From a virus (lineage: Duplodnaviria; Caudoviricetes), in IMG/VR virus record IMGVR_UViG_3300019884_000062, positions 1 through 58,751 of that record: a DNA stretch of 58,751 bases; one strand, given 5' to 3'. The translations under genes were made by a program, and so were the position numbers. Positions 1,159-58,682 of the stretch are shown here, in pieces. The notes beneath the pieces are model-generated. The model made no database searches. It was not told the DNA's origin and worked only from the letters and a program-made list of their open reading frames with translations. Each line of letters opens with the position of its first letter. Position 1 is the first letter of the stretch.

Positions 1159-1581
1159 CTAGTCGCCTACTAGCTCCAAAAGTCCTAATCGGACACCGAC
1201 CTCGGTCAAGACGCAAAGCGACTCGCTCGCATTCATCTCGGTGCCGCCGGTCACCCACCAACTGTCCTCAGTAGAGCATGTTGGGCCGAACTCGTGTTGC
1301 TCCCACAGAATCACGCCGTAGTTAGCCAAGAAACGTCCCATGTGCGCCTCGCACGGTTGGAACATGGCGCCATCCTTCGTTCGGACGTGCCACGCCGAGG
1401 CCGCCATACAGTCCTGCGCTGGATCGCAGTCCGGCGTGTCATTGTAGTGGCACGAGCCGTCCATGCCGCGCTCCAGATGGCCGACCGGAAGGCCGAGCGC
1501 GCGCTCCACGTCCTCAACGGTTTGTGGGACGAACTCCGGTGTTGGCTCGGTCACACCAGGAGCAGAGTCTATAGGGGACAT
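1159..1581 (-). CDS. Hypothetical protein, Cys/His-containing
   Basis: ORF 1159..1662, likely start MSPIDS with AAGGA upstream. Confidence 0.65.
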   Translation of the reverse strand: MSPIDSAPGVTEPTPEFVPQTVEDVERALGLPVGHLERGMDGSCHYNDTPDCDPAQDCMAASAWHVRTKDGAMFQPCEAHMGRFLANYGVILWEQHEFGPTCSTEDSWWVTGGTEMNASESLCVLTEVGVRLGLLELVGD

Positions 1582-1679
1582 ACAAGAATTCCTTCCAAGC
1601 TCGGATAGCCACAGCCGAGCGCGGCATGTAGCGGATGTCCTTAGGCCAATTGCATACGCCACAGGACGTGTTGAAGGGT

Positions 1680-1874
1680 CTAATGCGACCGTACATCATT
1701 CCTCTTAGGAGGGTCAGAACCCCTCTTCACGAATGGTTGATACTTCGACATACGATGCGGAGCCGCGTCCGCACCGTGCCAGCAGCATCGGCTCGCTACA
1801 TGCCATATGCCGTTGCGAACCACGCAGTAGCAGTCCACGGGCTGAACCCAGTCCGGATCAAGCACGTACATCAT
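1680..1874 (-). CDS. Hypothetical protein (64 aa)
   Basis: ORF track; AAAGGA RBS; overlaps the upstream stop. Confidence 0.5.
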   Translation of the reverse strand: MMYVLDPDWVQPVDCYCVVRNGIWHVASRCCWHGADAAPHRMSKYQPFVKRGSDPPKRNDVRSH

Positions 1875-2050
1875 CGCTTGGTCCTTTCAGGAGGGTTGAT
1901 GAACTCCTTACAAGGGCAGAAGATGCAACCCTTATCTCTATGCGCACCTCGGCGGTGGCCGCATCGCTTGGGATCTTTGACGCGGTGCTTCTCCTCCCAA
2001 GCCCGCGACATAACCCGATCGCATTTGTCTCCGGCCTTAGGGGAGACCAT
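1871..2050 (-). CDS. Small Zn-finger-like protein (CGH..H..C..CPC)
   Basis: Start MVSPKAG with GGAG upstream; Cys/His pattern. Confidence 0.55.
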   Translation of the reverse strand: MVSPKAGDKCDRVMSRAWEEKHRVKDPKRCGHRRGAHRDKGCIFCPCKEFINPPERTKR

Positions 2051-2354
2051 GCGGCCTCGGCTCCACGTACTCCCCGGACGCGCGGCGCTCCTCATAGGTG
2101 GCCGGCCTCCAGATCCGCATCTGCCACGCGTAGTCGATCGCACCCCAGTAGAAACGAGCATTACAGGGAGCGCCATCGCCGTACACGTAGTTACAAGCAA
2201 ACCAGTTGCCATCAGGAATCACACCATGCCTGTGGTGCTCCACAACGTATTCCTTGTGGATCTCCCGGAACCAGCTCTCATCCGGTCCCATCTCCAGGCG
2301 CGGCAATCGCGCACCGTCCTGATCGGACAGTCCTTTATCGATTCGTTGCACCAT
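2037..2354 (-). CDS. Hypothetical protein (105 aa)
   Basis: ORF track; start coupled to the upstream stop. Confidence 0.6.
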   Translation of the reverse strand: MVQRIDKGLSDQDGARLPRLEMGPDESWFREIHKEYVVEHHRHGVIPDGNWFACNYVYGDGAPCNARFYWGAIDYAWQMRIWRPATYEERRASGEYVEPRPHGLP

Positions 2355-2641
2355 CAGAAGCCCTTGACCCTCTCAGCATCGTCATCATCCGCGTACCAAT
2401 CGGCGGGAGTCGGCGGCGGCGGAGCTAACGGAAAGACCGTCGTTTTGACGCTGTCGCGCTTCAATCCCGAGTAGTGGACCGTCACATCGAATCCACCGGT
2501 GTCGTTGATCTTCGTCTCGACTCCCGTGATGATCACAGGCTCGCTCGGCGGCGTGTCGTACGTGAAGGCCCACTCGCTCTTGAACGCGATCCGGTGCTCA
2601 GCCGCCTCGGGCACTGCCGGCTCCTGGTTTCCGTCGCTCAT
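2354..2641 (-). CDS. Hypothetical protein (95 aa)
   Basis: ORF track; protein-like composition; tight spacing. Confidence 0.65.
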   Translation of the reverse strand: MSDGNQEPAVPEAAEHRIAFKSEWAFTYDTPPSEPVIITGVETKINDTGGFDVTVHYSGLKRDSVKTTVFPLAPPPPTPADWYADDDDAERVKGF

Positions 2642-2644
2642 CTC

Positions 2645-2740
2645 TCAGCCCTTCTTGGCGAAGATGAGGCAGGCCACGACCACGAGGCCGATCAGTAGGC
2701 CTGCCCAGAAGTGGTCCCACCTCACCCAACTAAAGTCCAT
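2645..2740 (-). CDS. 31-aa membrane peptide MDFSWVRWDHFWAGLLIGLVVVACLIFAKKG
   Basis: AGGAG RBS; single TM segment with basic tail. Confidence 0.6.
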   Translation of the reverse strand: MDFSWVRWDHFWAGLLIGLVVVACLIFAKKG

Positions 2741-2774
2741 AGCTCCTAGCGTCCCGCGCCGAGCGCGATTGCCG

Positions 2775-3041: not shown

Positions 3042-3135
3042 TACCTCATCCTCCAAGCTGCTAGTCCGAATAGGACGGCCGCAATCACGGCCACGCTCAG
3101 GACCTCGTGGAACGGAGGCCATTCAGCCGGCCACA

Positions 3136-3745: not shown

Positions 3746-3779
3746 ATCGAACTCCTACCTCAATACTAGGAGAAAACCT

Positions 3780-9199: not shown

Positions 9200-9342
9200 A
9201 ACAAGAGTCCTTTCAGGACGGACAGCAACGACGCTCCGATTAGGAGCAACAACACAGCCGCGCCGGAAGCGACCCAGTACCGCCAACCATGGTTGTACGG
9301 CGACTCGACCTCTTCCGGCGCATTCAGGGGTTCGAACTCCAT
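9187..9342 (-). CDS. 51-aa membrane peptide
   Basis: Hand-translated MEFEPLNAPEE...WVASGAAVLLLLIGASLLSVLKGLLLWST. Confidence 0.5.
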   Translation of the reverse strand: MEFEPLNAPEEVESPYNHGWRYWVASGAAVLLLLIGASLLSVLKGLLLWST

Positions 9343-9462: not shown

Positions 9463-9675
9463 TCACGCGCTCGGTACGTCTCCCGCTTTCGCCACTCTGC
9501 CCTCATGTCCGACATCGCCACGCTCCGTTGCGCTCATGAGCCGGTCCAGGTAGGCCAACGTTTCGGCCTTGTCCATCATGATCCTAGTAGGACGCTTGCC
9601 GACCTCGATGATCTCGACTTCGTACCTACCCCGCAAGTTAGTCTGGAGTAGACGGAAGCTCCACGGGACCATCAT
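9463..9675 (-). CDS. Hypothetical protein (70 aa)
   Basis: ORF track; GAGGAGG RBS. Confidence 0.6.
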   Translation of the reverse strand: MMVPWSFRLLQTNLRGRYEVEIIEVGKRPTRIMMDKAETLAYLDRLMSATERGDVGHEGRVAKAGDVPSA

Positions 9676-10537: not shown

Positions 10538-10538
10538 C

Positions 10539-10844: not shown

Positions 10845-11941
10845 GGGAAGTCACACTGCCTTTCGACGTTCTCCCAGCCCTGGAATGTACATTGCCGGCC
10901 GATACCGCCGCGACCTCCGCAAGTCGGGCAACCCTCCAGGCGGTAAGGCGGCTCTTCGTTGATCTCCGCCGCGTGCTTTTGGATGGCGAGATCGTTGGCA
11001 GAGGCAGCCACGCCGTCCGTGTGGATCCAGCCGGAGCCCTTACACGTTGGGCAGTCCTTGCCGGTCTTCTCGCAGCTGATCTTGACGTGCGGCTCCAGGA
11101 AGGGGTGTGCCTCGACCAGAACGCGCCGCATCTCCCGCGCGCACTGCACCATCTCCCACTGGAACATCGAGCAGCCTCGGTACGCGAAGACGTTGATGAA
11201 CTCGCGCAGCGGGTACTCGCAGAGGATGTAGTTGGTCGTGCCTTCCGGCAGGATGTACCGAGCGTCCTGATAGGACACCCCCGCGTCGCACGCCGCCTTG
11301 TACGCCTCCCAGCAGGCCAGCAGCGCTCGGTTCCAAAGCTCTGGAACTGACCACTCCGAGCGCGGACGATTAGTGCGATCCTCCCAGGCTTGCAGCTTCA
11401 GGATCGACATCGGCCAACGCTGGTTAGGGCGGTCGCCGTACCACGTCGCGCGCTGCGACTGCTGGTGGAAGGCGGCTCGCCGCGACCGCACGAGCTGGTG
11501 CGTCAGAACACGACTCGCGCCGATCACTTCGAAGACGACCACCTGTGACTCCAGCGCGGTCTGGAGGCCGCCACGGAACATCTCCATGGGGTCGGTCTCC
11601 TCCGGCGGCTCATCCGGGTGCACGCCGTTCGTGGCGCGGATGGTACGCCGCAACGTGTTCCGCAGCTGCGCCTCATCGATGCCCTGGATCAGTCGGACCT
11701 CCAGATTGTCCACGCCGTAGTCAACCCGGCCTTCATCGTACGGCGAGACCGCCTTGCCGTCGTTGAAGTCGTGATCATTGAACGCGCGATCGGCGAGCAG
11801 GAGTTGGTTATCCACGTTGGCCCGGCTGAAGATCGGACCGGGCTGGTAGTAGTCTCCGCCGTACTCGGGGTTGTCCAGGATCTCCTTGGGAACCGCATAC
11901 GGCCGGCTAGCCCGGTGCTCGTGAATCCAGTTGCCGGTCAT
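10787..11941 (-). CDS. thyX: FAD-dependent thymidylate synthase (ThyX-like, divergent)
   Basis: SRVLTHQLVRSR..FHQQSQR, DARYILP, QWEM motifs. Confidence 0.85.
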   Translation of the reverse strand: MTGNWIHEHRASRPYAVPKEILDNPEYGGDYYQPGPIFSRANVDNQLLLADRAFNDHDFNDGKAVSPYDEGRVDYGVDNLEVRLIQGIDEAQLRNTLRRTIRATNGVHPDEPPEETDPMEMFRGGLQTALESQVVVFEVIGASRVLTHQLVRSRRAAFHQQSQRATWYGDRPNQRWPMSILKLQAWEDRTNRPRSEWSVPELWNRALLACWEAYKAACDAGVSYQDARYILPEGTTNYILCEYPLREFINVFAYRGCSMFQWEMVQCAREMRRVLVEAHPFLEPHVKISCEKTGKDCPTCKGSGWIHTDGVAASANDLAIQKHAAEINEEPPYRLEGCPTCGGRGGIGRQCTFQGWENVERQCDFPWAKQDNRVFLPSPRNRIG

Positions 11942-12671: not shown

Positions 12672-15600
12672 GAGTCAACCTCCGGATCGATGATGTGTAG
12701 TTCTTTGACGTAGAGCGAGGCGCCGAAACTGTTCTGTGACTTCACGGCGCGGACCCAGATCACATCCTGGCCGAGCCGGATGCGTTCCAGGCCTTGCTTG
12801 AACATTGGGTAGTCGTACCGCTTCACGCGCACATAGACGTCCTCATCTCCATCGTCGCCACAGTGGAGTACGCAAGACGTAGGGAGGTCTGGCCTCCACA
12901 TCTCCGCCTTGATCTCCTCCACGTCCTTGCCGCTCCGCGAGCGCTCATCCTCGATGTAGTCCTTGTACTCCTTGACTCGCGGGATGCCGATCCAGATGAT
13001 CTCTACGTCCGGCGGTACGTCTAGGATGTCATCGCTTCGGCACGTCGGACGGCCGAGCGGGAGCGCGCCTGTGCGGATGTCCGCCCGTACCGCGTCTAGC
13101 ATCCGCTCGACTCGCTTGAGGCCGAACGGGTCATCACCGTCCAGCTGGTCCTCGAAGCCCTCAAGTATCTTCGCGCCGATCCCGTTGACCTTCAACAGAT
13201 CCCACGAGCCTGTGTACTCGTGTGTCTCAAGCCAGCGAAGTATCTTCCCGCTCAGGGACGGACCGATGCCCTTTAGCTGCGTCCATCCAGCCGCGACCTC
13301 GTGATCCGAGACCATCGTCCAGTCCTCAGAGGACCTTCCAGGCTTCACGCCATATACGGTGATCCCATGCTGCTCCGCGTCCTTGATGAGACGCGGCCAC
13401 ATAGTCTCCTTGGTACGCCTCAGTTGCGCGGTGTAGAAGGCAGCCGGGTGATGTACCTTGAACCACATCGCCCATACCCCTAGCATGGAGTAGGATATGC
13501 AGTGCGCGACGTTGAACGCGTAGGTAGCCGAGGTCACAAGCCGGCCCCATATGCCCTTAGCCGTCTCCGCGTCGATGCCGTGGAGTCGCTTGGCTCCGGC
13601 CGCGAAGCTCTCCGCACTCTCGTTGAACTTCGCCTCGCCGAGCTTCTTGCTGATGATCTTGCGGATCTCGTGGACCTCCGCGACCGGCAAGCCGCCGACA
13701 AGCTCCAGAATCTTCAGAATCTGCTCCTGGTAGATGATCTGATAGTTGGTGTCCTTCGTGAGGTCATCGATCATAGGGTGCCAGTGCCGCGCCTTCTTGC
13801 GGCCCCATTTCACGTCCACGTAGTCCGCTGTGGTACCGGAGAACAGAGGTCCAGGGCGGCTCAGCGCGTTGATAGCGGCCAGCTCCATAAACGTGTCCGG
13901 CTTGACATCTCGGTTCACGAGCCGGGTAGCTCGACCTTCGAACTGGAAGATGCCCACGACATCATTGCGGCGGAACGCATCCATGACCTCCGGCTCTTCC
14001 ATGGAGATCCGGTACAGGTCTTCAAGCGTGAGGCCGGTCAACGTGAGCGCCTGGTCGATCATCTCCATCGTAGAGAGTCCCAGGAAGTCAACCTTCAACA
14101 GGTTCAGATACTCGGCGTCATACTTGTCCACCGCGACCACACGAACCTCGTGGCCCTTGACCTCTCTGGTATATGCCGCAACAACTTCATCCAGCGCACG
14201 ATCGGTCGTCACCACGAGTCCGGCCGCGTGCACGTTCATCGTCTTGTAATTGCCTTCGAGCCGAGCCGCCTTCCAGAGGTCCGGATGCCGGTCGAACACG
14301 GCTTGTACGGCCGGGAACATACCGACCGTATCGGCAAGCGTGAAGTCGGCGCGCGAGTCTCCGCCGCTCCGCTCGATCAACATACCCTTCACGGTCTCCG
14401 CGTCTACCTTGGGAATCCGGTACACGCGGGCGATATCATCGATGGAGTTACGACCCTTGTAGCCGACATAGTTGGCGAGGTTCCCAACCCGGTCCTCGCC
14501 GTACCGGCGCACTAGGTGTTCGCGGACCTCGTGCCGTCGCGAGCTAGCAAAGTCGAGGTCGATGTCAGGGATGTCAGTCCTAGTAGGATCGATGAAGCGC
14601 TCGAAGTACATGAGCGGGTACTCCATCGGGTCAATCTCGGTGATCCTAAGTAGATAGCAAACCAAGGAAGCCGCAGCAGAGCCACGGGCCGGTCCCACAG
14701 GGATACCCGCATCCTTCGCAAATCTGACCGCATCGGCAGTGATGAGGAAGTAGTCGATGAAGTCCTTCGCTTTGATGTCCCCCATCTCCCGTAGGAGACG
14801 GTTGTGGTAGGCCACTTTCTCCGCAACCATCTTCCGATTGCCTTGCGCGACGCGGTACGCCCACCCCTCCCTCATCCACTTCCATATCAACTCCTCAGAG
14901 GACAGTCCTAACGCGACTTGGTCAACCGGGAACCGGAGATCACCGGCGCGCGGTAGCTCCACCGTGCAGCGCTCGGCTATCTCCATAGTGGAGCGACAAG
15001 CCTCCATGGCTGCCCGTCTACTTAGGCCAGTCCCTAGTAGACGGTCGAACACGAACTGGTCGGTAATCGGGTGCGTCAACCGGATGTCGTACTCCCACGA
15101 CTCAACCTGCTGCTTTACCGAGTTGCTACCGCGCGAGGCGGCGTGGAGAATGACCTGCATCTCGTTATCGTCAGCCTGCGGGTAGTGAACATCCTGAGTA
15201 CCGACCAACGGGATGCCAAGCTCGCCTCCCAGACGTTGGTACGCCTGGTTGATTTGCCCGGAGCGCGGGAGCTCAGGGAAGGCTTGGCACTCAAGGTAGA
15301 AGCGATCACCCAGTAAACCCTTGAACCGCTGGGCAACCGCCTTCGCGCGAGCATAGGACGCGTCAGCCGCGTCGATGGTCTTTCCACCCAGGAGACTAGA
15401 GGCCAGCAAGGAGTCTGAGCATCCTGATAGGATGATGAGACCCTCATGGTGATCCGCGAGCATGGACCCGTTGACCGTAGGCCAGTAATAGAAATTCTCA
15501 GCATATGAGCGCGTCACAATCCGGTTGAGGTTCGCGTACCCGGTCTGGTTCATGGCCAAGAGCGTGAGGTGGAACTTGCGTTGCGAGCCCGGCTCCGGAT

Positions 15601-21183: not shown

Positions 21184-21247
21184 TCGATCCTCCTGTTAGG
21201 ACTCCCGCGAGCGCGCTGCGCGACGCGGCCTTGCAACCCGGCTCAAG

Positions 21248-24115: not shown

Positions 24116-24118
24116 GGA

Positions 24119-40339: not shown

Positions 40340-41553
40340 CGCTTCACCACCGCCGTTGTTTCGCTTACTGCGCCGATGTATTGGTCTCTTAGGACGGTCG
40401 CTGCGTCGCCAGCCGCCGCCGAGCCGCCAGCGAAAACAACTCCTAAGTAGACGTCCAACCCGGTCACGGCTGCCTTCGAGATCCCACGATCGGTTGTGTA
40501 GGCCACGGTCTTGCTCGACCCCACGATGAACCGGTTACCATCCGCATCATCGGCAGTCGCAGTCACGTAACCGGTCGCGGTCTGGTTGCTAGCCGTCTCC
40601 GTGGTCTCCAAGTACGCACCAAGAGTAGAGCTGACATCGGTCTGGATGTAGACCTCGGCGAGCCGCGACCCGCGCCGGAGCGAGACGTCCACATAGGTCC
40701 GACCGATCGTATGTGCCTTCAACAGACGTATGGTCGCTAGCTCGAAGTCGTTGCGGATGACGGTCATGGAGTCGAAGTTACCAAGCGATGTCGTCGCTCC
40801 GCCGCGCGCGATATGCCAGGCCTTAGTCTCCCATGCCGTCCCGCCCCAGGCCGAGACTTGGAGCATACCGGCGGCCAACAGCGGCGTAACGCGCACGAGA
40901 CCGTTGTTCAATTCCCAACCGGTCGCCGAGGCGCGGATGCCGACTCCGGTACGTTCGAACCCTCCTGTTAGGACTCGCACGCGGCCGGCTGGGTAAGCGA
41001 GCGCTGAGCAAGCGTAGCGCGGGTTGATGTTAGCCGGGATGGTGCGGTAGATCGTGATTGCGCCGTCCGTGCCGGTTCGCGTCATCGAGGTCGAAGGCAG
41101 CGTGGAGCCGGTGAAGTAGGCAGTATGGCCGATCGGCGGAGCGTGCCAACGCTCGCCCGTCAACACGTAGTTGTTGGCCCGTACCACAGTCCCCATTCGA
41201 CTCTCGATATCGAGTACGTTGTCCGGTCCGTACTTGGACAAGATGAAGTTCCACTCGAAGGAACGCATCATGTCTTCCGGCCAGTCGAGCACGGACGCAC
41301 CAACATCCTGCACTCGATAGAAACCGTCCTGATCGGACTTGTTGGAGAACCGGACCGGCACGATCCGGTCGGCAAGTCCAAGGATGTCCTCTTGCTTCCG
41401 TTGTACCTCCGCAAGGTCAGCGCCTCGGTAGCCGATGAAGTGTTGGCCGGTCACCTGAATCGTCCGCTCGCCGGTGCCGGCGTTATGCTGCTCGGACAGC
41501 TCGTGTCGCTCGGAGACTTCCAAGCGACCGATAGTCATCAGACCCCAGCTCAC
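40336..41553 (-). CDS. Minor tail protein (distal tail position)
   Basis: Immediately after the tape measure gene; beta-rich. Confidence 0.75.
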   Translation of the reverse strand: MSWGLMTIGRLEVSERHELSEQHNAGTGERTIQVTGQHFIGYRGADLAEVQRKQEDILGLADRIVPVRFSNKSDQDGFYRVQDVGASVLDWPEDMMRSFEWNFILSKYGPDNVLDIESRMGTVVRANNYVLTGERWHAPPIGHTAYFTGSTLPSTSMTRTGTDGAITIYRTIPANINPRYACSALAYPAGRVRVLTGGFERTGVGIRASATGWELNNGLVRVTPLLAAGMLQVSAWGGTAWETKAWHIARGGATTSLGNFDSMTVIRNDFELATIRLLKAHTIGRTYVDVSLRRGSRLAEVYIQTDVSSTLGAYLETTETASNQTATGYVTATADDADGNRFIVGSSKTVAYTTDRGISKAAVTGLDVYLGVVFAGGSAAAGDAATVLRDQYIGAVSETTAVVKR

Positions 41554-44366
41554 TTGTACCCCTTTGCATAGCGGTCCAGCTCTTCGTGCAGCTTCGCCAC
41601 GAACTTACGCGGCACCTCAGGGTCATCGAGGTCCCAAGTCCCCGTGATGCTCACGGTACCGATGGTAATCGTTCGGTCTCCGCCGCTCGGCGCTGCCGGC
41701 GCGGGTGGCCGTTCCACGTGAGCGGCCATGCCGGCGTTAGCCTGGCCTACCGCCGCACCCGCCGGCATCGGCACCGCCTTCGACACGCCGCCGAGCGTCC
41801 GGGCAACCGCGTCCCGCGCGGCTTTCGCGGTCCCGATGATGCCGGATGCGAAGTCCTCGACCATATGCTGGCCACGGTACTTCACATATCCTCGGCCGGA
41901 CAAGGGGCCTTCCTTCGCAGGCGAGCCCGGCAAGAAGCGCGTCACGGAGTTGACGATGTTGCGAGCGGTATCTGCGACTACGCCAAGCATCGACCTGATC
42001 CCGTTGATGAATCCTTGGATTAGCTCGCGTCCCTTGTTGTATAGCATGCCACCGAGGTTCCCAATGGCGCCGATCACGCGGCCCGGGATGCCCTTGACGA
42101 AGCTGATCAGCGAGCCGGTGCCGCCTTCCGCCGCGCGCTTGAGTTCGTTGAAGAACCCTCGCACCTTGTCCACGATTGCTTTGATACCGTTGATGATCGC
42201 CACGATCGTGTTGACGGCGGTCCGCACGATAGCAGCAATCGCGTTCCAAGTCGTCGTGAAGATGAGCTTGATCGCGTTGAAGACCGTGGTCACGATCGCC
42301 TTGATCGCATTCCACGCAGTCGTAAAGACCGCCTTCTGGAAGTTCAACCAGGCGACGATGAAAGGCTTGAGGAAGTTGACAACAATCTCGATTGCCTTCT
42401 TGATGGCGTTGAAGGCGGCTGTGGTAGCCTTCGAGACTCCGCTCCAAATTGCGCCCCAGATCGCCTTCTGCGCGTTCAGCCAACCCTCGATGAACGGTCG
42501 CAAGAAGTTGATGACGGCCGTCACGACCATCTTGATTGCGTTCCACCAGTGCTCGAAGAGGAATGCCACGAACCTGAGGATGGGCTCCCATATGGTCCGC
42601 ATCAAGGTGATCCAGACCGCGAACAGAGCGTCCATGATCGCGAACGCAGTCTTTACCACAGAAACGATGAGGTCGAAGGCTGCCTTCCAGATCGGCGCCA
42701 CGACGCTGAAGATGGTCTTGAGAACGTTGAACCAGGTCCGCGCGACCGTCAGCCATGCGTTGAAGATGACCTTGATGACCTTCCATGCCGCTTCGAAGAA
42801 TCCTGAGATAGAGCCCCAGATATTCTTGAAGAATGGCACGAGCGTGTTCATGAACCACGAGGCAACCGCTTGTGCGGCCTTCTTGATCGCGGCCCAAACC
42901 GCGAGCACGATGTTGCGGAAGGTCTCGCTGCGCTTCCACAGAAGGATGATCGCGGCCACCAGCAGAATGATGGCCAATACTACCAGGCCGATAGGAGAAG
43001 TCAGGAATACCGCGTTGAACAGACGCCAGGCGAGCGCTAGCACCTTGATGGCGACGGTCCACGCGACCGTCACGATCCGCAGGAGCTTCATCGCGACCAC
43101 GAGCGCCTTCACGGCTCGCACGAACTGCATCACCTTGACGGCTACACCGAGGAACAGAAGAAAGCCGGCCGTCACCATAGCGATGTTGAGAATCAACGAC
43201 TTCGTGCCATCGTCCATGCTGTTCAGGAAGTTGGCGAACTTCGTCAGTGCCTTCACGATCTTCGTGATGGCCGGCAACAGAAGCGTCCCGAATGCGATGG
43301 CGGCGGTCTCCGCTGAGCCCTTCAATTGCTCGATGGCTCCGGCGGTGTTGTCGAGCCGCTTAGCCGCGACCTCTTCCGCCGTTACCTTGCCCATGGCGGT
43401 GGCCATCTCTTCGAAGCCCTTGCTGCCGGCCTTCGTGAGCACTGCCGCCGCTCGGATCGCATCCGAGCCAAAGATGGTCTCCAGCGTGAGCTGCTTCTGC
43501 TCCGCCGTCATGTTCTTGGTGCGGTCCTGCAAAAGCTGTGAGATGTCGGCCAGAGACTTGATGTTTCCCTTGGCATCGAAGAACTGGTTGGACCCGTCCT
43601 TGGTGACTAGCCCCAGTTCCTTGAAGAGCTCAATCTGCTTCTTGGTGGTCGGCGAGAGGTTCGACAGCATCGTCTTGAGCGAGGTGCCGGCATCCGATCC
43701 CTTGATGCCGGCCTGGCCCATAAGGGCGATGGCAGTCGCTGTGTCCTCAAAGGACAGTCCTACTAGGTTGGCCACCGCGCCGACTTGCTTCAGAGACTGC
43801 CCAAAGTCGCCCACGGAGATAGAGGATGCGTTGGCCGCGCCGGCAATCTGGTCCGCCACCTTGGGGAGATCGCTCGCCGAGAGGCTGAACGCGTTCATCG
43901 CGTCCGCCGCTAGCTCCGCCGCCGCCGGTAGCTCGACACCCCCTGCGGCCGCTAGGGCCACCGTAGCATCTGCGGCTCCGCCAAGGATTTGGTCTACTGT
44001 CAAGCCTGCCTTCGCAAGCTCCTCCATGGCGTTAGCGGCTTCGCCCGCACCAAAGGATGTATCCGCGCCTAGCTGGAGCGCCTTCTTGCGGAGCCGTTCC
44101 AAGTCCTCGGAGCTAGCGCCGGACACGGCACCGATCGCGCTGATCTGCTTCTCGAAGTCGATGGCGACCTTCGCGGCCAAGCCGATGCCTACGGCGATAA
44201 CCCCACCGGCGACCGCCATCTGGTGGCCGGCCTCATTGAAATTCTGACCGGAGCCCTTGGCAGACTTGCCGGTCTTGTCCATGTCCCGACGCGCTTGGTC
44301 AAGTCCCTTGCCGTCATAATCGACTTGGACTTTGCCCTTGGCTGTGCCCAGATTGTAGTCTGCCAT
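41550..44366 (-). CDS. Tape measure protein (TP901-type core)
   Basis: FEKQISAI..LRKKALQLG..GIKGSDAGTSLK; Trp/Phe periodic repeats; LPGSPAKEGPL. Confidence 0.96.
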   Translation of the reverse strand: MADYNLGTAKGKVQVDYDGKGLDQARRDMDKTGKSAKGSGQNFNEAGHQMAVAGGVIAVGIGLAAKVAIDFEKQISAIGAVSGASSEDLERLRKKALQLGADTSFGAGEAANAMEELAKAGLTVDQILGGAADATVALAAAGGVELPAAAELAADAMNAFSLSASDLPKVADQIAGAANASSISVGDFGQSLKQVGAVANLVGLSFEDTATAIALMGQAGIKGSDAGTSLKTMLSNLSPTTKKQIELFKELGLVTKDGSNQFFDAKGNIKSLADISQLLQDRTKNMTAEQKQLTLETIFGSDAIRAAAVLTKAGSKGFEEMATAMGKVTAEEVAAKRLDNTAGAIEQLKGSAETAAIAFGTLLLPAITKIVKALTKFANFLNSMDDGTKSLILNIAMVTAGFLLFLGVAVKVMQFVRAVKALVVAMKLLRIVTVAWTVAIKVLALAWRLFNAVFLTSPIGLVVLAIILLVAAIILLWKRSETFRNIVLAVWAAIKKAAQAVASWFMNTLVPFFKNIWGSISGFFEAAWKVIKVIFNAWLTVARTWFNVLKTIFSVVAPIWKAAFDLIVSVVKTAFAIMDALFAVWITLMRTIWEPILRFVAFLFEHWWNAIKMVVTAVINFLRPFIEGWLNAQKAIWGAIWSGVSKATTAAFNAIKKAIEIVVNFLKPFIVAWLNFQKAVFTTAWNAIKAIVTTVFNAIKLIFTTTWNAIAAIVRTAVNTIVAIINGIKAIVDKVRGFFNELKRAAEGGTGSLISFVKGIPGRVIGAIGNLGGMLYNKGRELIQGFINGIRSMLGVVADTARNIVNSVTRFLPGSPAKEGPLSGRGYVKYRGQHMVEDFASGIIGTAKAARDAVARTLGGVSKAVPMPAGAAVGQANAGMAAHVERPPAPAAPSGGDRTITIGTVSITGTWDLDDPEVPRKFVAKLHEELDRYAKGYK

Positions 44367-48502: not shown

Positions 48503-48573
48503 AACCTACCCCCTTGGTAGGCCGGCGACCGGTCTGGGCATACCGGCCGCCGGCTCCTCCACCCGGTGAAGTC

Positions 48574-48909
48574 CTATTCGGACCGCGTGGCGTCGTCCAC
48601 CTGGAGCGCGGTCGCGTAGTCCGCCACCTTCACAGCTCCGTTGGCGCCTGTGCCGACCACCACGATGCCTGCGCCAAACTTCTCGTTGCGCGCGGCCACC
48701 TCGGCCTCCAGCTCCTTCTTGGGCCACTTGTTGTAGTCGTCCGGCAGTTCGGCGCCGGAGTCGGCGCCTCCGTCGTCCGGCTCGCTGTCCTCGGCGTCCG
48801 CCGGGAACTGCGCGTCCAGGTAGGCCACGCGCGAGTCGTCGCCTCGCATCAGCATGTAGGCACGGTCCTCATCGGACAGAGGCCGGTCCATCGGAATCTG
48901 GCGTGTCAT
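48574..48909 (-). CDS. Hypothetical protein following the capsid gene
   Basis: PLSDEDRAY; Y.KWPKKELEAE SAP/HeH-like segment. Confidence 0.7.
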   Translation of the reverse strand: MTRQIPMDRPLSDEDRAYMLMRGDDSRVAYLDAQFPADAEDSEPDDGGADSGAELPDDYNKWPKKELEAEVAARNEKFGAGIVVVGTGANGAVKVADYATALQVDDATRSE

Positions 48910-54026: not shown

Positions 54027-54027
54027 C

Positions 54028-55575
54028 TCATCTCCTTGTCCTAGCTCGCGTTTGCCTAGCGGAGCCGCGATCACTCCATGGTCGGCCGAACAGACCGCTG
54101 TAGAAGCGGCCTAGCGCCTCCGGCGTATGGTTGTCTTTGTCCAGTGGGGCCTCCCGAGCACTCCGCCCGCGCTCGGCGGCTTGCTCGGCCGTTTCTGGGT
54201 ATCGGTACGCGCCGAACTCGCGGATTGTGTTGACGCAACGTCTATGGATCGTAAGGCCGGGCATTCCTGTGGCCGGGTTCAACTTTAGACCACGGCGGAT
54301 CCACTCGATGCGATCCTCTAACGGGATGCTTCCCTTGCCGTGGGTTCGCAGCTTGAGTCGCTGGGCAAGCTCCTTGGTCCGGTCAGGCTCGGCTGGGTCG
54401 GGGTAGACCATCCGAACCGTTCGCGGCGCAAGACCGCGAGCAGCAATATCAGCTGCTGCCTCCTCTGTCGTCTTGTGCGTATCATAGTATTCGTCCAGGA
54501 CATGCACGCGCTCTCTATGTGGGTCTACCTGAATTAGCAACCAAACGAACGGGTTGTTGAACCCGTAGTCTACACAGGCGTAGGTCGCCCACGCCGGATT
54601 GAACTCCTCATCGGTAACGTGGAACTCCTCATCAAAGTCCTTGAAGACCCGACCCACGTACTCCGTGAAGAGCGCCGCGACCTCTTGGTTGAACAGCTCC
54701 TGGCTCATGTCCAGGAACATCGCCCAGATCTCAGCGTTGATGACGATGCCGTGCCGGTTATACCCAAGGCCGTGGATCGACTTAGTTGGGTCAAAGCGCA
54801 CAGCGTTATTGCCCCGGATTGCCTTGTATAGCCTCAGAAGCGCGTCAAGCTGGTGCCTGCGCCGCATCTCGATAGCCTTGCCGAGGAACGCCTCATCGAC
54901 TCCGCCCGGGTACACATGCGGGTTACACCACGATGGGGCGCGCCAAGACCTCCAGTCCGTCCTAAAAGGATCCAACCCCAACATGTAGAGGTCATAGAAC
55001 CAGTTCTTGCCTTCCGGGGTCGAGTTGAACATCGACCAACCGTTGAAGTCGGCGAGGGTAGGCCGGATGTACTTGTACCAGACGCTCGGCTTCATCTTCG
55101 CGGCCTCGGCCATGATCACGCCCGACAGACCTTCGCCAACCAGCGTCCCTGGGTACTTCGCCGACTTAGCGTGTATGATGAAGCGCCGACCGAACATGGA
55201 GATGACCATCTCGCCGGACTCGGGGTTGTTATAGCTACCGGGATGGTCGAACTCGAAGCCGAGCCGCTCCAGCTGACTCCAGGTAGTCCTGAACTCCTTC
55301 TCGGAGTCGCTGTATTCCGGCCCAACGATCCAGTACTCACGCCTCTGTCCGAGGCGGATCAACTCATCTAGCTCATACCAGGTCCGAAACGCCTCCGGTA
55401 CAAGCCTTCTACCGCCGGTCTGGGACTTGCCGGCTCGCCGACCGAGCGCGACCACCTTGTTTCTGGTGCCGTCCAACAGGATCTCGCGCTGCACTTTATG
55501 CGGCTCCCATCCCGACTGCTCCCAGAGTGATTCGTTGAGCTCATCTGGGATCGGTGGGGTGAGAAGGATCGGCAT
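54028..55575 (-). CDS. terL: Terminase large subunit
   Basis: GRRAGKS Walker A, AEAA Walker B, STPEG, nuclease DYGF..DPA..DKDNH. Confidence 0.95.
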   Translation of the reverse strand: MPILLTPPIPDELNESLWEQSGWEPHKVQREILLDGTRNKVVALGRRAGKSQTGGRRLVPEAFRTWYELDELIRLGQRREYWIVGPEYSDSEKEFRTTWSQLERLGFEFDHPGSYNNPESGEMVISMFGRRFIIHAKSAKYPGTLVGEGLSGVIMAEAAKMKPSVWYKYIRPTLADFNGWSMFNSTPEGKNWFYDLYMLGLDPFRTDWRSWRAPSWCNPHVYPGGVDEAFLGKAIEMRRRHQLDALLRLYKAIRGNNAVRFDPTKSIHGLGYNRHGIVINAEIWAMFLDMSQELFNQEVAALFTEYVGRVFKDFDEEFHVTDEEFNPAWATYACVDYGFNNPFVWLLIQVDPHRERVHVLDEYYDTHKTTEEAAADIAARGLAPRTVRMVYPDPAEPDRTKELAQRLKLRTHGKGSIPLEDRIEWIRRGLKLNPATGMPGLTIHRRCVNTIREFGAYRYPETAEQAAERGRSAREAPLDKDNHTPEALGRFYSGLFGRPWSDRGSARQTRARTRR

Positions 55576-56835: not shown

Positions 56836-56865
56836 CGCCCAGACTCCTTCCTGACTCGGATGAGC

Positions 56866-56899
56866 GAGCCGGAGCCCACGGGGGTGAGGGCTCCGGCTC
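56866..56899. terminator. Intergenic hairpin (12-bp stem, 10-nt loop)
   Basis: GAGCCGGAGCCC/GGGCTCCGGCTC. Confidence 0.5.
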
Positions 56900-56953
56900 T
56901 GGCCACGCGCGCATGTAGCTCGGTGTGCTCGGCCTCGTGGACTTGCATCGAGA

Positions 56954-57403
56954 CTACCGGAAGGCCGAGCCGCCGGGGTCATCCGCCGTGTCGGCCACGT
57001 CCGCCTTCAGGTCCACCGTGCCGTGATGGCTCGTGTTCGCCGAGGCGGAGTACAACTCGCCGGACTCAGCCATGGCCTTCGCGGCGGAGCGGAGCTTGTC
57101 CAGCATCTGGTCCTCGGCCTCGGCCGTGTCGGCGTGCGCGCTCATCGATACCTGCAGGGTCATGGGGTCTCCTCCCAAGGTGGTGATTTCGGGGGAGAGC
57201 TTACTCGGCGCGGGTACGCCCGGCTCACCAGACATGAACAGCTGGCTAGTACACAGATCCAGCATCTCCTTGGCGGCGCGCGTGTCCTCGTACCGCCCAG
57301 AGCGGTCTACTAAGGACTGAGCAAACCTATGCATCTCCCGCCAAGCCGCGATCCATCCCAGTCTCTTCGCTGCTTCCTGGTACTGTTCCATCTGGCTTGC
57401 CAT
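56954..57403 (-). CDS. Hypothetical protein; strong in-frame internal start at 57163
   Basis: ORF track; GGGAGG before 57403 and GGGAGGAG before MTLQVSM. Confidence 0.55.
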   Translation of the reverse strand: MASQMEQYQEAAKRLGWIAAWREMHRFAQSLVDRSGRYEDTRAAKEMLDLCTSQLFMSGEPGVPAPSKLSPEITTLGGDPMTLQVSMSAHADTAEAEDQMLDKLRSAAKAMAESGELYSASANTSHHGTVDLKADVADTADDPGGSAFR

Positions 57404-57572
57404 TGAGCTTGGCCTCCCGCTTCAGCTGGTTGAAGATCCTCAGGAATTCTTCCGGGTAGAGCTTGGCTAGCTCGCGGAGCGCCTTATGCCGCAAGCGCTC
57501 GATGGCTCTCTGGCGATCCTGCGAGTCGGCATTGCGGGACCGCCAGTTGCGCATGTACTCGGCTGAGGGCAT
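57327..57572 (-). CDS. Hypothetical basic protein
   Basis: ORF track; directly follows the upstream stop. Confidence 0.6.
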   Translation of the reverse strand: MPSAEYMRNWRSRNADSQDRQRAIERLRHKALRELAKLYPEEFLRIFNQLKREAKLNGKPDGTVPGSSEETGMDRGLAGDA

Positions 57573-58025
57573 CTAGTTCACGCGTTCCAGAACACACTTG
57601 AACTTCGACGGCAGCTCTCCGGTCGCACTCACCGCCTTGTCCTTCGCGGTCGCACCGGCGGCCAAGTTGTTCACGACACCGTGCGCCTCGCCGAGCCGGG
57701 TACCGGCCGCGTCCGTGACGCCAAACTGGATCCAGTAACTCTCCGTCCGGTCGCTGGCATTCACGACCGTGAAGCCGACCTCGGCCATCCCCAGCGCGTC
57801 GGCGCGGCAGGCCGTGATCTTCACGTGTTCCTTGAGGCCGGTCGATCCGTTCTGGATCTGGTCGTCCACGGCCTTCGCGCCGAGGCCGAGCGCCGCGACC
57901 GCGACACCTCCGCAGACCAACATGAGCGCGACGAATCCGCCGAGGAGCCAGGGCCACATCTTGCGCTTCTTGGGCGGCTGCGGCGGTCCACTCGGGTAAC
58001 CACCGTGCGTCTGTTGCGGGTACAT
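57573..58025 (-). CDS. Membrane-anchored surface protein, FxLYD-like Ig fold
   Basis: Pro-rich N-terminus, KKRK plus TM segment, VVN.S..SYWIQF..D..GTRLG..NLAAG; AAGGAG RBS. Confidence 0.7.
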   Translation of the reverse strand: MYPQQTHGGYPSGPPQPPKKRKMWPWLLGGFVALMLVCGGVAVAALGLGAKAVDDQIQNGSTGLKEHVKITACRADALGMAEVGFTVVNASDRTESYWIQFGVTDAAGTRLGEAHGVVNNLAAGATAKDKAVSATGELPSKFKCVLERVN

Positions 58026-58250
58026 ATCATCTCCTTGATTGAGTTTCAAAGGCAAGGAGACCTTACCCGACGGTAAACACCTGGCGCTATATGTGGGCCT
58101 CCGGCCGCTTCCTGGGGAAGGCACGGCCGGAGGCTGGCTAGACGTAGTAGTTGGTAGGCCACATTACTCTCGTGGTCGCATAGCTACCTCCCAACCTACC
58201 GCTGATAGCAGCACAGTACTCGAAGCGTAGGCGAGCCGGCTAGGGTGGCG

Positions 58251-58682
58251 CTACGGGCGTGTTCGGTCAGGGGTCCAGGCCCGTATGTCCCTCCACGCCT
58301 CGCGCGCCGGTACGACCACAGGAGTGCCGTCGTACGCGGTGCCGAGCCGGGTACCCGACCGGTCCGGCGCGAAGCCACCCGGGCAGTTTGTACACGTGTC
58401 CAGCTGTGTTCGGCCGTGGTCGCAACGTCCCGCGCTAAAAGCGATGGCACGCCACTTCTCCTCATCACGCGCGTCTCGGTCACCACTGAATTTCGCAACG
58501 ACGTGCGCGTGGGTCGCATCCGAGACGCGGCCAGGTTCCGGCGCGGGAGGCAAGTCCTCCTCGATCATGAGGACTGGGTAGGGGTCCTTGCGACAGTCCT
58601 CTAGGGACCGACCGCAAAGGACCAGCTTCCAAGGCACGGTGTCGTACCGGAAGCTGGTCCTCTCGTACTGCGTGTTAGCCAT
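58251..58682 (-). CDS. Hypothetical protein
   Basis: ORF 58251..58706; start MANTQY two nt after the junction-gene stop. Confidence 0.6.
   Translation of the reverse strand: MANTQYERTSFRYDTVPWKLVLCGRSLEDCRKDPYPVLMIEEDLPPAPEPGRVSDATHAHVVAKFSGDRDARDEEKWRAIAFSAGRCDHGRTQLDTCTNCPGGFAPDRSGTRLGTAYDGTPVVVPAREAWRDIRAWTPDRTRP

What the first reader, a model, noticed from the sequence alone, without database searches (positions are those of the whole stretch)
1182..58608. Genome-wide dispersed palindrome TCCT-N3-AGGA, mostly embedded inside genes
Seen: exact TCCTNNNAGGA at about 1700, 1882, 9208, 9582, 11265, 13323, 14578, 14892, 15422, 19474, 21191, 21827, 24042, 25164, 35678, 40963, 43744 and 54960 (18 counted by eye), often extended to GTCCT-N3-AGGAC. 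CTCCTGTTAGGAC occurs identically four times. One-mismatch variants lie at about 1182, 3065, 9234, 12120, 25105, 26058, 46380, 47749, 48571 and 58596. My rough estimate, assuming about 65% GC and independent bases, is under one copy by chance. Many copies sit in unrelated CDSs (dnaE four times, helicase, terL, TMP, fibre, thyX) and several force CTA codons, unusual in high-GC genes. Several overlap ribosome-binding sites (SSB, MazG-like, major tail). Inference: a binding-site network for a dimeric protein, analogous to mycobacteriophage L5 stoperators or parS-like sites, but in a phage with no recognisable repressor or integrase. Candidate binders are the RHH protein (6590), the histone-like protein (24119) or a host factor. 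An RNA-hairpin role is an alternative.
Basis: partly seen in the sequence, partly recalled or inferred. Interest (0 to 1): 0.85.

Follow-up and report, generated by a model that had tools for sequence, protein, structure and literature searches.

The report
Private dispersed palindrome in a phage
One uncultured soil phage has written a short mirror-symmetric DNA word into many of its own genes, most likely as landing sites for a paired DNA-binding protein that is still unidentified.

Summary
TCCT-N3-AGGA occurs 18 times in the 58.7-kb phage record. Dinucleotide shuffles give 0.87. Synonymous-codon shuffles give 4.4, of which 3 are fixed non-coding copies. Only the 3-base spacer is enriched.

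The fuller site is a 13-bp dyad, S-TCCT-(A)(W)(T)-AGGA-S. Codon alignments with up to 29 relatives show that the copies arose in this lineage by substitution, not insertion. They use minority codons (CTA, AGG, ACA, GGA) and some amino-acid changes. None of 42 related DnaE loci shares the enrichment.

Overlap with ribosome-binding sites is no more than AGGA alone predicts. Exact copies favour the replication/nucleotide-metabolism arm, 14 of 18. The outer flanks prefer G/C but do not pair, and no wobble variants are enriched. This argues against a plain RNA hairpin.

Best reading: docking sites on duplex DNA for a symmetric dimer, acting by density rather than position. The binder is unidentified, and the RHH candidate is not supported.

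The closest precedent is the 17-bp dyad repeat of Cluster O mycobacteriophages, whose function is also unknown (PMC4351075). This scan has noted similar dispersed palindromes in other phages.

The parts
1700..1710 (.). exact copy, spacer AAG on the coding (minus) strand; 36 nt upstream of the GTG of ORF 1159-1662
1882..1892 (.). exact copy, spacer GAA; AGGA serves as the SD of ORF 1680-1874 (ATG 7 nt downstream)
9207..9219 (.). perfect 13-mer GTCCTGAAAGGAC; SD of the MazG-like pyrophosphatase gene (start 9199)
9582..9592 (.). exact copy, spacer ACT, just upstream of ATGATG of a small ORF
11264..11276 (.). perfect 13-mer in the ThyX-like gene (peptide SYQD). This is the only copy also present in G001 and G002, so it is ancestral or a coincidence of the peptide
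13322..13334 (.). perfect 13-mer in DnaE (RSSED); absent at the homologous place in all 24 aligned relatives
14578..14588 (.). exact copy in DnaE. The conserved peptide DPTRT is written CCT ACT AGG, whereas 22 of 24 relatives use CGN for Arg
14891..14917 (.). exact copy in DnaE (SSEE), shared with L055, plus an adjacent extra half-site forming AGGAC-T-GTCCT-CTG-AGGAG
15422..15432 (.). exact copy in DnaE. The conserved peptide (V/I)LSGC is written CTA TCA GGA
19474..19484 (.). exact copy in ORF 18931-19764 (VLRGE, CTA AGA GGA)
21190..21202 (.). GTCCTAACAGGAG; SD of the SSB-like gene 20602-21183 (C-terminus DDEPPF)
21827..21837 (.). exact copy in the Sak4-like annealase gene; LLTGL where relatives have ALAAA or MLAAL (amino-acid changes)
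24041..24053 (.). perfect 13-mer GTCCTTTTAGGAC in the 283-nt gene-free gap 23836-24118
25163..25175 (.). GTCCTAACAGGAG in the helicase gene; MLTGE in relatives becomes VLTGE written GTC CTA ACA GGA
35677..35689 (.). GTCCTAACAGGAG in the Gly-rich tail-fibre-like ORF 35030-35986 (VLTGD)
40962..40974 (.). GTCCTAACAGGAG in minor tail gene 40336-41553; ILTDG in G002 becomes VLTGG
43743..43769 (.). perfect 13-mer in the tape measure gene plus an adjacent extra half-site (TAGGAC-T-GTCCT-TTG-AGGAC); TCA TTC CAG GAT in G002 becomes TCC TTT GAG GAC
54960..54970 (.). exact copy in TerL; DPFRT written CCT TTT AGG where G001 and G002 have DGHRP and DDRRA
2316..2334 (.). degenerate copy GTCCGATCAGGAC preceded by AGGAC-T; third instance of the 10-mer AGGACTGTCC
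1182..1194 (.). degenerate copy GTCCGATTAGGAC (inner T to G)
3064..3076 (.). degenerate copy GTCCTATTCGGAC (inner A to C)
25105..25117 (.). degenerate copy GTCCTGTAGGGAC
41326..41338 (.). degenerate copy GTCCGATCAGGAC
48571..48583 (.). degenerate copy GTCCGAATAGGAC at a gene boundary

Best explanation
The motif is a dispersed set of docking sites on double-stranded DNA for a symmetric, probably dimeric, sequence-specific DNA-binding protein. Each subunit reads a (G/C)TCC(T) half-site. The half-sites are separated by an A/T-leaning 3-bp centre, giving an ideal site near GTCCT-A-W-T-AGGAC.

There are 18 exact copies and roughly 10-15 weaker ones. They were written into pre-existing genes of this one phage lineage by point substitution, wherever a half-site or a tolerant peptide made that cheap. 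What matters is therefore the number and density of sites, above all in the replication/nucleotide-metabolism arm, not their exact place relative to promoters.

My committed guess for the effect is that the bound protein coats or blocks this arm of the genome, for example to throttle or shut off its transcription, or to organise or mark the replicating DNA.

What is shown: the enrichment, spacer specificity, dyad symmetry, origin by substitution, and restriction to this lineage. What is inferred: that a protein binds, that it is a dimer, and what binding does. The binder is not identified. The confidence given is for duplex-DNA protein docking sites; the particular effect (throttling or marking the early arm) I hold at about half of that.
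For: 1. Enrichment is robust to dinucleotide and synonymous-codon shuffles and specific to the N3 spacer.

2. Recognition is by sequence, not pairing. Of 24 single-base variants, only changes of the innermost pair are enriched: TCCG...AGGA 11 vs 3.6, its mirror TCCT...CGGA 5 vs 2.1, and TCCT...GGGA 5 vs 2.0. The four variants that would keep an RNA stem by G-U (both C to T changes in the 5' arm, and the two corresponding G to A changes) occur 0 times.

3. The two halves behave symmetrically and independently. The outer flank is G/C in 30 of 36 cases (p=0.006), but the two flanks could pair in only 7 of 18 sites against 8.7 expected.

4. Where a spacer position is a free third codon position, it follows a symmetric rule. 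Spacer-1 is A in 6 of 6 frame-0 sites (CTA). The centre is T in 4 of 4 frame-2 sites. Spacer-3 is T in 2 of 2 frame-1 sites (codons).

5. Sites were made by substitution against codon preference and sometimes against the ancestral residue, with no indels. Examples are DPTRT with AGG, ILSGC with CTA TCA GGA, MLTGE to VLTGE, and DDRRA/DGHRP to DPFRT.

6. The 10-mer AGGACTGTCC places a third half-site beside the site in 3 places. This fits cooperative binding and cannot fold as a hairpin.

7. Exact copies favour window 1-25200: 14 of 18 against 43% of the length (binomial p=0.003). One-mismatch sites split 14:20 (Fisher p=0.019).

8. There is a precedent of the same architecture in actinophages: arm, A/T-rich N3, arm, G/C-rich flanks, in and between genes, favouring the non-structural arm (PMC4351075, section 8 read).
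Against: No binder is identified. None of the 68 proteins scanned against Pfam (of about 92 ORFs) matched an HTH, RHH, ParB or other sequence-specific DNA-binding family; only a weak HhH match appeared. PHROGs gave nothing for the lineage-specific small proteins.

Only 4 of 22 gaps longer than 40 nt hold a copy, so the sites are not where classical operators sit.

The 18 spacers fall into only 8 kinds, and none is the reverse complement of another (P about 0.005 after allowing for context composition). On its face this is strand-specific. I explain it by coding constraints, but that explanation rests on 12 sites.

All genes lie on one strand, so DNA and RNA readings cannot be separated by strand.

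Conservation could not be tested, because no relative closer than 71% DnaE identity was reachable.
Confidence: 0.5

Rival explanations
1. RNA-level element. The transcript forms a 4-5 bp triloop hairpin, UCCU-NNN-AGGA. An RNA-binding protein or an endoribonuclease recognises it, to tune the stability or translation of early messages. This is loosely comparable to T4 RegB cutting at GGAG (recalled, not checked here).
For: All copies are transcribed in one sense, because all genes lie on the minus strand. The 5-bp versions fold at about -5 to -7 kcal/mol. Spacer kinds never occur with their reverse complement. AGGACTGTCC occurs 3 times on the coding strand and 0 times in the mirrored form. Some copies include a Shine-Dalgarno sequence. 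Copies favour the early arm.
Against: There is no covariation. The arms are fixed in sequence, G-U-compatible variants are absent (0 observed for four variant types), and variants that break the closing pair (G.A, U.C) are enriched. The fifth pair shows a base preference without pairing (7 of 18 against 8.7 expected). Fold z-scores against shuffles are weak, from -2.0 to +0.7. RBS overlap equals the AGGA baseline. The upstream extra half-site cannot pair, because it would leave a 1-nt loop.
Confidence: 0.15
2. The sites are read by a host protein that the phage exploits, such as a global regulator or nucleoid protein of its particular host. In that case the privacy of the motif reflects a host switch rather than a phage gene. 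Published examples include host CtrA sites in phages of Alphaproteobacteria (PMC9437464; search listing and abstract start only).
For: No phage-encoded sequence-specific binder was recognised. Relatives with about 60-70% identical core genes lack the enrichment, as expected if their hosts differ.
Against: The host is unknown. The only genomic lead is an Actinoplanes chromosome carrying a 73%-identical lysin domain. That genome has 105 copies in 10.8 Mb, about 30 times sparser than in the phage, so there is no sign of a dense host regulon. I could recall no actinobacterial regulator with this site (recall only).
Confidence: 0.15
3. HIP1-like hyper-abundant palindrome. The sites would be targets of a modification or restriction-type enzyme, or of a biased repair process, or would serve as a 'self' mark. 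They would accumulate genome-wide for reasons unrelated to gene regulation. The core TCC-N5-GGA resembles the bipartite sites of Type I/IIB enzymes (recalled).
For: The pattern matches what is described for HIP1: roughly 20-fold excess, mostly inside genes, indifferent to position, and lineage-specific replacement by other palindromes (PMC5861425 and PMC4390886, abstracts read). A sister lineage of this phage family carries TGCCGGCA at 12-13 copies against about 0.6 expected per 23 kb, and those copies are kept more often than control 8-mers (62% vs 36%). The phage has a uracil-DNA-glycosylase-family gene and a lineage-specific nucleotide-pool cassette.
Against: No DNA methyltransferase was recognised. 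The one PHROG 'methyltransferase' hit is a protein ending in DDEPPF, with no Pfam methyltransferase match. The substitutions that made the sites include transversions and multi-base codon changes (CGT to AGG, ATG to GTC), which deamination-repair bias cannot explain. The skew to one genome arm is not expected from a neutral genome-wide process.
Confidence: 0.15
4. Chance, or a by-product of composition, codon usage or repeated peptides.
For: Some near-variants are explained by common codons, for example frame-2 TCC GAT GAG GAC encoding SDED. One copy (ThyX SYQD) and perhaps a second (DnaE SSEE) are inherited peptide coincidences.
Against: 0 of 100 dinucleotide shuffles and 0 of 300 synonymous shuffles reach 18. 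The 12 clearly intragenic copies use all three frames (6, 2 and 4). 42 related loci show 0-2 copies each.
Confidence: 0.01

Closest known systems
17-bp dyad-symmetric repeat of Cluster O mycobacteriophages (5'-TGTTCGG-NNN-CCGAACA, 34 copies in Corndog; PMC4351075, section 8 read)
   Same: Both are inverted arms around a 3-bp A/T-rich spacer with G/C-rich flanks. Both have tens of copies spread through a roughly 60-70 kb actinophage genome, in genes as well as between them, and favour the non-structural arm. In both, the site is absent or sparse elsewhere, is interpreted as a dimer-binding site, and has unknown function. I recounted 29 copies in the Corndog part I fetched.
   Different: The arms here are 4-5 bp rather than 7 bp, have a different sequence and are less strict. 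Two thirds of copies are intragenic, against about one third in Corndog. The motif is private to one lineage rather than shared by a cluster. No protein of this phage resembles anything encoded in Corndog 25-69.8 kb (tblastn E<0.01). Corndog encodes a ParB-like protein and HTH proteins, and none were found here.
Operators and stoperators of Cluster A mycobacteriophages (L5, TipsytheTRex; PMC9283540, passages read)
   Same: Both have more than twenty copies of a 13-bp site spread over a phage genome, read by one phage protein, acting within transcription units rather than only at promoters.
   Different: Stoperators are asymmetric, bound by a monomer with two domains, oriented with transcription, placed in short intergenic spaces, and belong to temperate phages with an immunity repressor. 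Here the site is a dyad and mostly intragenic. No repressor or integrase was recognised.
HIP1 (GCGATCGC) and alternate HIPs of cyanobacteria (PMC5861425, PMC4390886; abstracts read)
   Same: Both are hyper-abundant short palindromes, mostly inside genes, with lineage-specific replacement by other palindromes and unresolved function.
   Different: HIP1 is a contiguous 8-mer in cellular chromosomes, conserved between genomes and associated with cognate methyltransferases. Here the motif is gapped, is not conserved in relatives, and no methyltransferase was found.
Dispersed palindromic chromosome or plasmid sites such as matS/MatP, SlmA and Noc sites, parS/ParB, and the KorB OB operators of RK2 (recalled, not read here)
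   Same: These are 12-16 bp palindromes, tens of copies, often inside genes, confined to one region of the replicon, read by a dimer that acts by where and how densely it sits.
   Different: Those binders belong to known families (RHH-containing MatP, TetR-type SlmA, ParB family). None was recognised in this phage.

Membership tests
Cluster A stoperator system | Asymmetric 13-mer bound by a monomer | tested here: not met
   The site is a dyad. Both arms are fixed as reverse complements and the flanks are symmetric. The definition comes from PMC9283540.
Cluster A stoperator system | Sites in promoters and short intergenic spaces | tested here: not met
   12 of 18 copies are clearly intragenic. 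Only 4 of 22 gaps longer than 40 nt hold a copy.
Cluster A stoperator system | Orientation tied to the direction of transcription | tested here: inconclusive
   Spacer kinds are orientation-uniform (P about 0.005), but coding constraints can explain this. All genes share one strand.
Cluster A stoperator system | Cognate immunity repressor (HTH) in a temperate phage | tested here: not met
   No HTH, integrase or repressor family was found among 68 proteins scanned with Pfam and 30 with PHROGs. About 24 ORFs, mostly structural, were not scanned.
Cluster O-type dyad repeat | Inverted arms separated by an A/T-rich 3-bp spacer, with G/C-rich flanks | tested here: met
   N3 only. The centre base is A or T in 16 of 18 sites, and the flanks are G/C in 30 of 36.
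Cluster O-type dyad repeat | The specific invariant 7-bp arms TGTTCGG/CCGAACA | tested here: not met
   The arms here are (G)TCCT/AGGA(C). There is no homology between the two phages' proteins.
Cluster O-type dyad repeat | More than 30 copies shared by all cluster members at similar places | tested here: not met
   There are 18 exact copies. Only 1 is shared with G001 and G002, and 2 of the 4 covered are shared with L055. The other 42 loci hold 0-2 copies.
HIP1-like hyper-abundant palindrome | 15- to 300-fold over-representation, mostly within genes | tested here: met
   About 20-fold over dinucleotide shuffles.
HIP1-like hyper-abundant palindrome | A cognate DNA methyltransferase in the genome | tested here: not met
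   No methyltransferase Pfam family was found in 68 proteins. The single PHROG label falls on an SSB-like protein.
HIP1-like hyper-abundant palindrome | Sites conserved between related genomes | tested here: not met
   The relatives available are distant (at most 71% DnaE identity), so this is a weak test.
parS/ParB or KorB/OB | A ParB-family protein encoded by the replicon | tested here: not met
   No ParB-family Pfam match in 68 proteins.
Structured RNA element | Pairing kept through compensatory or wobble changes | tested here: not met
   Wobble-compatible variants occur 0 times, pair-breaking inner variants are enriched, and flank pairing is at chance.
RHH (CopG/Arc/MetJ) protein as the binder (ORF 6593-6769) | Recognisable RHH fold or family membership | tested here: inconclusive
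   No Pfam match even at E up to 5. A PDB profile search gave only chance hits. The AlphaFold monomer is a single helix with pLDDT 68. The strand-helix-helix pattern is my reading of the sequence.
RHH (CopG/Arc/MetJ) protein as the binder (ORF 6593-6769) | Its site lies at its own promoter (autoregulation), as is usual for RHH regulators | tested here: not met
   No copy or near-copy lies in the 240 nt upstream. That region instead carries TCGGGTA x2.

The most novel reading that the evidence does not exclude
Lineages of this DnaE-encoding actinophage family may each carry a private genome-wide DNA 'signature' palindrome: TCCT-N3-AGGA here, TGCCGGCA in a sister lineage. These would be written into essential genes by substitution and read by a rapidly exchangeable protein. 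The system would serve to tell own DNA from foreign DNA, for example by sparing it from a phage nuclease, or by directing recombination, replication or packaging to it. That would make it a phage counterpart of Chi, DNA uptake sequences or HIP1 rather than a gene regulator.
Probability: 0.2. Interest if true: 0.8.

Novelty: new variant of a known kind. Interest (0 to 1): 0.55.

Why it matters
Dispersed dyad repeats were described in Cluster O mycobacteriophages in 2015, and my searches of the held library found no paper that explains them.

This case adds a clean evolutionary picture. The copies are recent, private to one lineage, and created by substitution inside conserved genes, at a measurable cost in codon choice and even in protein sequence. 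That implies strong selection for site number rather than site position.

If the binder and its effect were found, it would explain a recurrent and unexplained feature of phage genomes. This scan has met it in several unrelated phages. It would also provide a compact, orthogonal protein-DNA recognition pair.

Tried and rejected
Closer relatives, needed to test conservation at silent positions.
- A word search with the RHH-like protein found P0003 (86% identical, on an 11-kb Logan contig).
- A metagenome scan with DnaE gave only the two known relatives, a 5.8-kb contig at 71% and a distant one.
- Sequencing runs that hold the window carried only identical fragments of it, plus distant relatives over conserved stretches. 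No microdiversity could be read.

Binder hunt.
- Pfam was run on 68 proteins and PHROGs on 30.
- ESM Atlas was tried on two lineage-specific proteins; there were no usable hits.
- A word search with ORF 2775-3041 found only the ORF itself.
- An AlphaFold monomer of the RHH-like protein was uninformative, and a PDB profile search gave chance hits only.
- The RHH-like gene has a homologue in G001 (6 motif copies) and none in G002 (1 copy). I first took this as a hint. G001's copies are few (6 against about 1.5 expected), sit in a different arm, and one is the inherited ThyX site, so I dropped it.

Ideas rejected.
- Translation control at ribosome-binding sites: the overlap equals the AGGA baseline.
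- Inserted mini-element: no indels at any aligned site.
- Peptide motif: all three frames are used.
- Link to the 'methyltransferase' label: the protein is SSB-like.
- Shared proteins with Corndog: none.
- Host clue: one lysin domain is 73% identical to an Actinoplanes gene, and the motif is not dense in that genome.
- The promoter/terminator scan of 18-36 kb found fewer sites than shuffles gave.
- PLot, the closest isolate (DnaE 51%), has no strong palindrome.
- Comparing gene content between the TGCCGGCA lineage and its motif-poor relative L038 pointed only to an HNH endonuclease and small unknown ORFs. This window also has a lineage-specific HNH (32154-32459). HNH genes are too common in phages for this to count as evidence.
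- The other palindromes are not comparable. The L036 hit looks like a longer regulatory repeat, and the L018 hit is weak.

Full report
WHAT THE WINDOW IS

The window is a whole IMG/VR virus record of 58,751 bp and 62% G+C, estimated about 90% complete. By GC3-guided ORF selection, essentially all genes lie on the minus strand. In coding order it has:
- a structural left arm (TerL 54028-55575, tape measure 41550-44366, tail genes);
- a lysis cassette (endolysin 34052-34996, holin-like 33084-33578);
- a right arm with helicase, RecB/Cas4-like exonuclease, Sak4-like annealase, an SSB-like protein ending in DDEPPF, DnaE, a ThyX-like protein, a MazG-like pyrophosphatase, a dNMP phosphatase and a PrimPol/D5 helicase.

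It is only distantly related to cultured actinophages. The best DnaE match is Mycobacterium phage PLot at 51%. No integrase, repressor, ParB or DNA methyltransferase family was recognised. Pfam was run on 68 of about 92 ORFs and PHROGs on 30.

THE OBSERVATION

- 100 dinucleotide-preserving shuffles give mean 0.87 and a largest value of 5.
- 300 shuffles that permute synonymous codons within each gene give mean 4.38 and max 8. Three of those copies are non-coding and were not shuffled. In the same gene set, 15 real copies lie within ORFs.
- Spacers other than N3 give 0-4 copies, and the everted arrangement gives 2.
- Among all 4-mer inverted repeats with N3, this one ranks first. GTCC-N5-GGAC is the same site seen one base further out, with 17 copies against 1.8 by the product of 4-mer counts and 4.3 in codon shuffles.
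- Against the 13-mer GTCCTNNNAGGAC there are 5 perfect matches (0.07 expected), 21 with one mismatch (2.2 expected) and 38 with two (26 expected).
- I therefore estimate about 18 exact copies plus 10-15 weaker functional ones.

ANATOMY OF THE SITE

The position matrix and a scan of all 24 single-base variants show the following.
- TCC and GGA are strict.
- The innermost pair tolerates change symmetrically: TCCG...AGGA 11 vs 3.6, and its mirror TCCT...CGGA 5 vs 2.1. TCCT...GGGA is also raised, 5 vs 2.0.
- The outer flank is G or C in 30 of 36 cases (p=0.006). The two flanks could pair in only 7 of 18 sites, against 8.7 expected from the marginals.
- The centre of the spacer is A or T in 16 of 18 sites.
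- The 10-mer AGGACTGTCC occurs three times. Each time it places an extra, oppositely oriented half-site one base before a copy, at 14900, 43752 and 2325.

The 18 spacers fall into only 8 kinds (15.4 expected), and none is the reverse complement of another (P about 0.005 after allowing for local composition). At first sight that is strand-specific.

The codon alignments give a simpler account. In the six frame-0 copies, spacer position 1 is the third base of a Leu codon, and it is A every time (CTA, 11% of Leu codons). In the four frame-2 copies the centre is a third codon base, and it is T every time. In the two frame-1 copies spacer position 3 is a third codon base, and it is T both times. 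Where the code leaves a position free, the preference is thus the symmetric A-W-T. The other spacer bases are dictated by the resident peptide. This explanation rests on only 12 sites, and I mark it as inference.

HOW THE COPIES AROSE

I aligned codons at the sites with up to 29 relatives.
- There are no insertions at any site.
- The conserved DnaE peptide DPTRT is written GAT CCT ACT AGG ACT here, while 22 of 24 relatives use CGN for the Arg.
- (V/I)LSGC is written CTA TCA GGA.
- Helicase MLTGE became VLTGE, written GTC CTA ACA GGA.
- The tape-measure codons TCA TTC CAG GAT of G002 are TCC TTT GAG GAC here.
- In TerL and in the annealase the site required amino-acid changes: DDRRA/DGHRP to DPFRT, and ALAAA/MLAAL to LLTGL.
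- Only the ThyX copy (peptide SYQD) is present in both full-length relatives. The DnaE SSEE copy is shared with the 71%-identical contig L055.

So the copies are recent, lineage-specific, and made against codon preference. The multi-base and transversion changes are not what deamination-linked repair bias would produce.

DISTRIBUTION AMONG RELATIVES

The whole record G001 (DnaE 67% identical) has 6 copies against about 1.5 expected, and G002 (61%) has 1. In 23-kb DnaE-centred loci the window has 12 copies against 0.41 expected. All 42 other loci have 0-2.

An unbiased search for gapped 4+4 palindromes in the same loci found a different hyper-abundant palindrome, TGCCGGCA, in eight loci of a sister lineage. 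The longer loci there hold 10-13 copies against about 0.6 expected. A relative of that lineage at 74% identity holds only 1. Among the members of that lineage, which are about 80% identical, 62% of aligned TGCCGGCA copies are kept against 36% of control 8-mers (331 site comparisons; the pairs are not independent). PLot shows nothing comparable. Private dispersed palindromes therefore recur in this phage family, but not in every member.

PLACE IN THE GENOME

Twelve of 18 copies are clearly intragenic, in frames 0, 1 and 2 at 6, 2 and 4 copies. Of 22 gaps longer than 40 nt, only four hold an exact or inner-variant copy.

21% of all 305 coding-strand AGGA lie in an RBS-like position. Of the 18 motif copies, 5 do, and two of those are spurious internal TTGs. 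The overlap is thus what the AGGA half alone predicts. It suggests that copies were built wherever one half already existed.

Exact copies favour window 1-25200, which holds 14 of 18 copies in 43% of the length (p=0.003). One-mismatch sites split 14:20 (Fisher p=0.019).

DNA OR RNA

The 5-bp versions can fold as triloop hairpins of about -5 to -7 kcal/mol, but with weak z-scores. Four points argue against an RNA structure:
- the arms never covary;
- G-U-compatible variants are absent, while pair-breaking inner variants are enriched;
- the fifth pair shows base preference without pairing;
- the extra upstream half-site cannot pair.

Because all genes share one strand, the strand test is unavailable. 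I put the RNA reading at about 0.15.

WHO BINDS

I could not identify the binder.

It has a strand-helix-helix pattern that is conserved in a close homologue (P0003, 86%) and in G001 (48%). However, Pfam, a PDB profile search and an AlphaFold monomer did not confirm the fold. Its own upstream region has no copy of the motif. Instead it has two TCGGGTA words 12 bp apart. These resemble the iterons TACCCGTCTGCC/GGCAGACGGGTA that fill the A/T-rich 376-nt gap just downstream of the adjacent PrimPol-helicase gene. I think this protein more likely serves that origin-like region.

The histone-like protein (24119-24568), the HhH protein (22112-22588) and the many lineage-specific small ORFs remain possible, and so does a host protein. 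The host is unknown. One lysin domain is 73% identical to an Actinoplanes gene, and that genome carries the motif about 30 times more sparsely than the phage.

COMPARISON WITH WHAT IS KNOWN

The closest precedent is the 17-bp repeat of Cluster O mycobacteriophages, TGTTCGG-NNN-CCGAACA. It has 34 copies in Corndog, an A/T-rich 3-bp spacer and G/C-rich flanks. The text puts 14 copies in short intergenic regions and 11 clearly within coding regions, with several others close to gene 5' ends. It favours the non-structural arm. The authors interpret it as a dimer-binding site, and they say a transcriptional regulatory role seems unlikely (PMC4351075, section 8 read). The architecture is the same here. 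The arms, their length and strictness, the share of intragenic copies and the phage proteins differ.

Cluster A stoperators differ in defining respects: they are asymmetric, bound by a monomer, oriented and intergenic (PMC9283540, passages read). HIP1 of cyanobacteria resembles this motif in abundance and intragenic placement. It is contiguous, conserved between genomes and tied to methyltransferases (abstracts read).

My library searches found no paper that assigns a function to the Cluster O repeat or describes TCCT-N3-AGGA. Supplements were closed and could hold more. This scan's earlier notes list several other phages with private dispersed palindromes, some tied to orphan ParB proteins. 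I treat these as leads only. No ParB-family match was found here.

VERDICT

The most likely mechanism is a set of docking sites on duplex DNA for a symmetric dimer, acting by density on the replication/early arm. The binder and the effect are unknown. This is a new variant of a kind already described in actinophages. It is of moderate interest, mainly because the origin of the sites by substitution is unusually clear, and because the function of this whole class of elements is still open.

Noticed in passing
window 3746-4121: The 376-nt gene-free gap just downstream of the PrimPol/D5-helicase gene is packed with iterons in both orientations (TACCCGTCTGCC and GGCAGACGGGTA, periods 11-12 bp). 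They surround A/T-rich stretches, which makes this a candidate replication origin. Two related TCGGGTA words lie upstream of the small RHH-like gene, at 6804 and 6816.
   Followed up: partly
loci L020, L021, L022, L023, L028, L035, L043, L044 (relatives): A sister lineage of DnaE phages carries TGCCGGCA at 5-13 copies per locus, against about 0.3-0.7 expected. The copies are kept in 62% of aligned comparisons, against 36% for control 8-mers. A 74%-identical relative (L038) has only one copy. An HNH endonuclease gene is among the few genes in these loci that are missing from L038's locus.
   Followed up: partly
window, 12 places (e.g. 6979, 20656, 22094, 55596, 58234); also G001: AGCCGGCT occurs 12 times against about 2 expected in the window, and 10 times against 1.8 in G001. 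It is often followed by CCGG. The expectation comes from 4-mer counts only, so this may be compositional.
   Followed up: no
window 7655-10844 and 10787-11941: A lineage-specific block encodes a dNMP phosphatase and a MazG-like pyrophosphatase. It sits next to an unusually long (384 aa) ThyX-like protein. The genome also encodes a UDG-superfamily protein, whose coordinates I did not pin down.
   Followed up: no
window 14872-14903: The DnaE copy at 14892 is followed 6 nt later by an in-frame ATG, so a strong SD-plus-start lies inside DnaE (codon about 326). It may be chance, or it may be an internal start.
   Followed up: no
window 12120-12135 and 24789-24807: Two small ORFs (65 and 56 aa) begin with near-identical DNA (CCTAATCGGAC) that encodes LIGL at the start of a hydrophobic segment. 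They are probably paralogous small membrane proteins.
   Followed up: no
window 20602-21183: PHROGs labels this protein 'methyltransferase' (phrog_9460, E 1e-9). It has no Pfam methyltransferase match and ends in the SSB-type acidic tail DDEPPF, so the label is probably misleading.
   Followed up: partly
window 34052-34996; locus L058: The N-terminal 190 residues of the endolysin are 73% identical to a gene in an Actinoplanes chromosome. This is the only clue to the host range that I found.
   Followed up: partly
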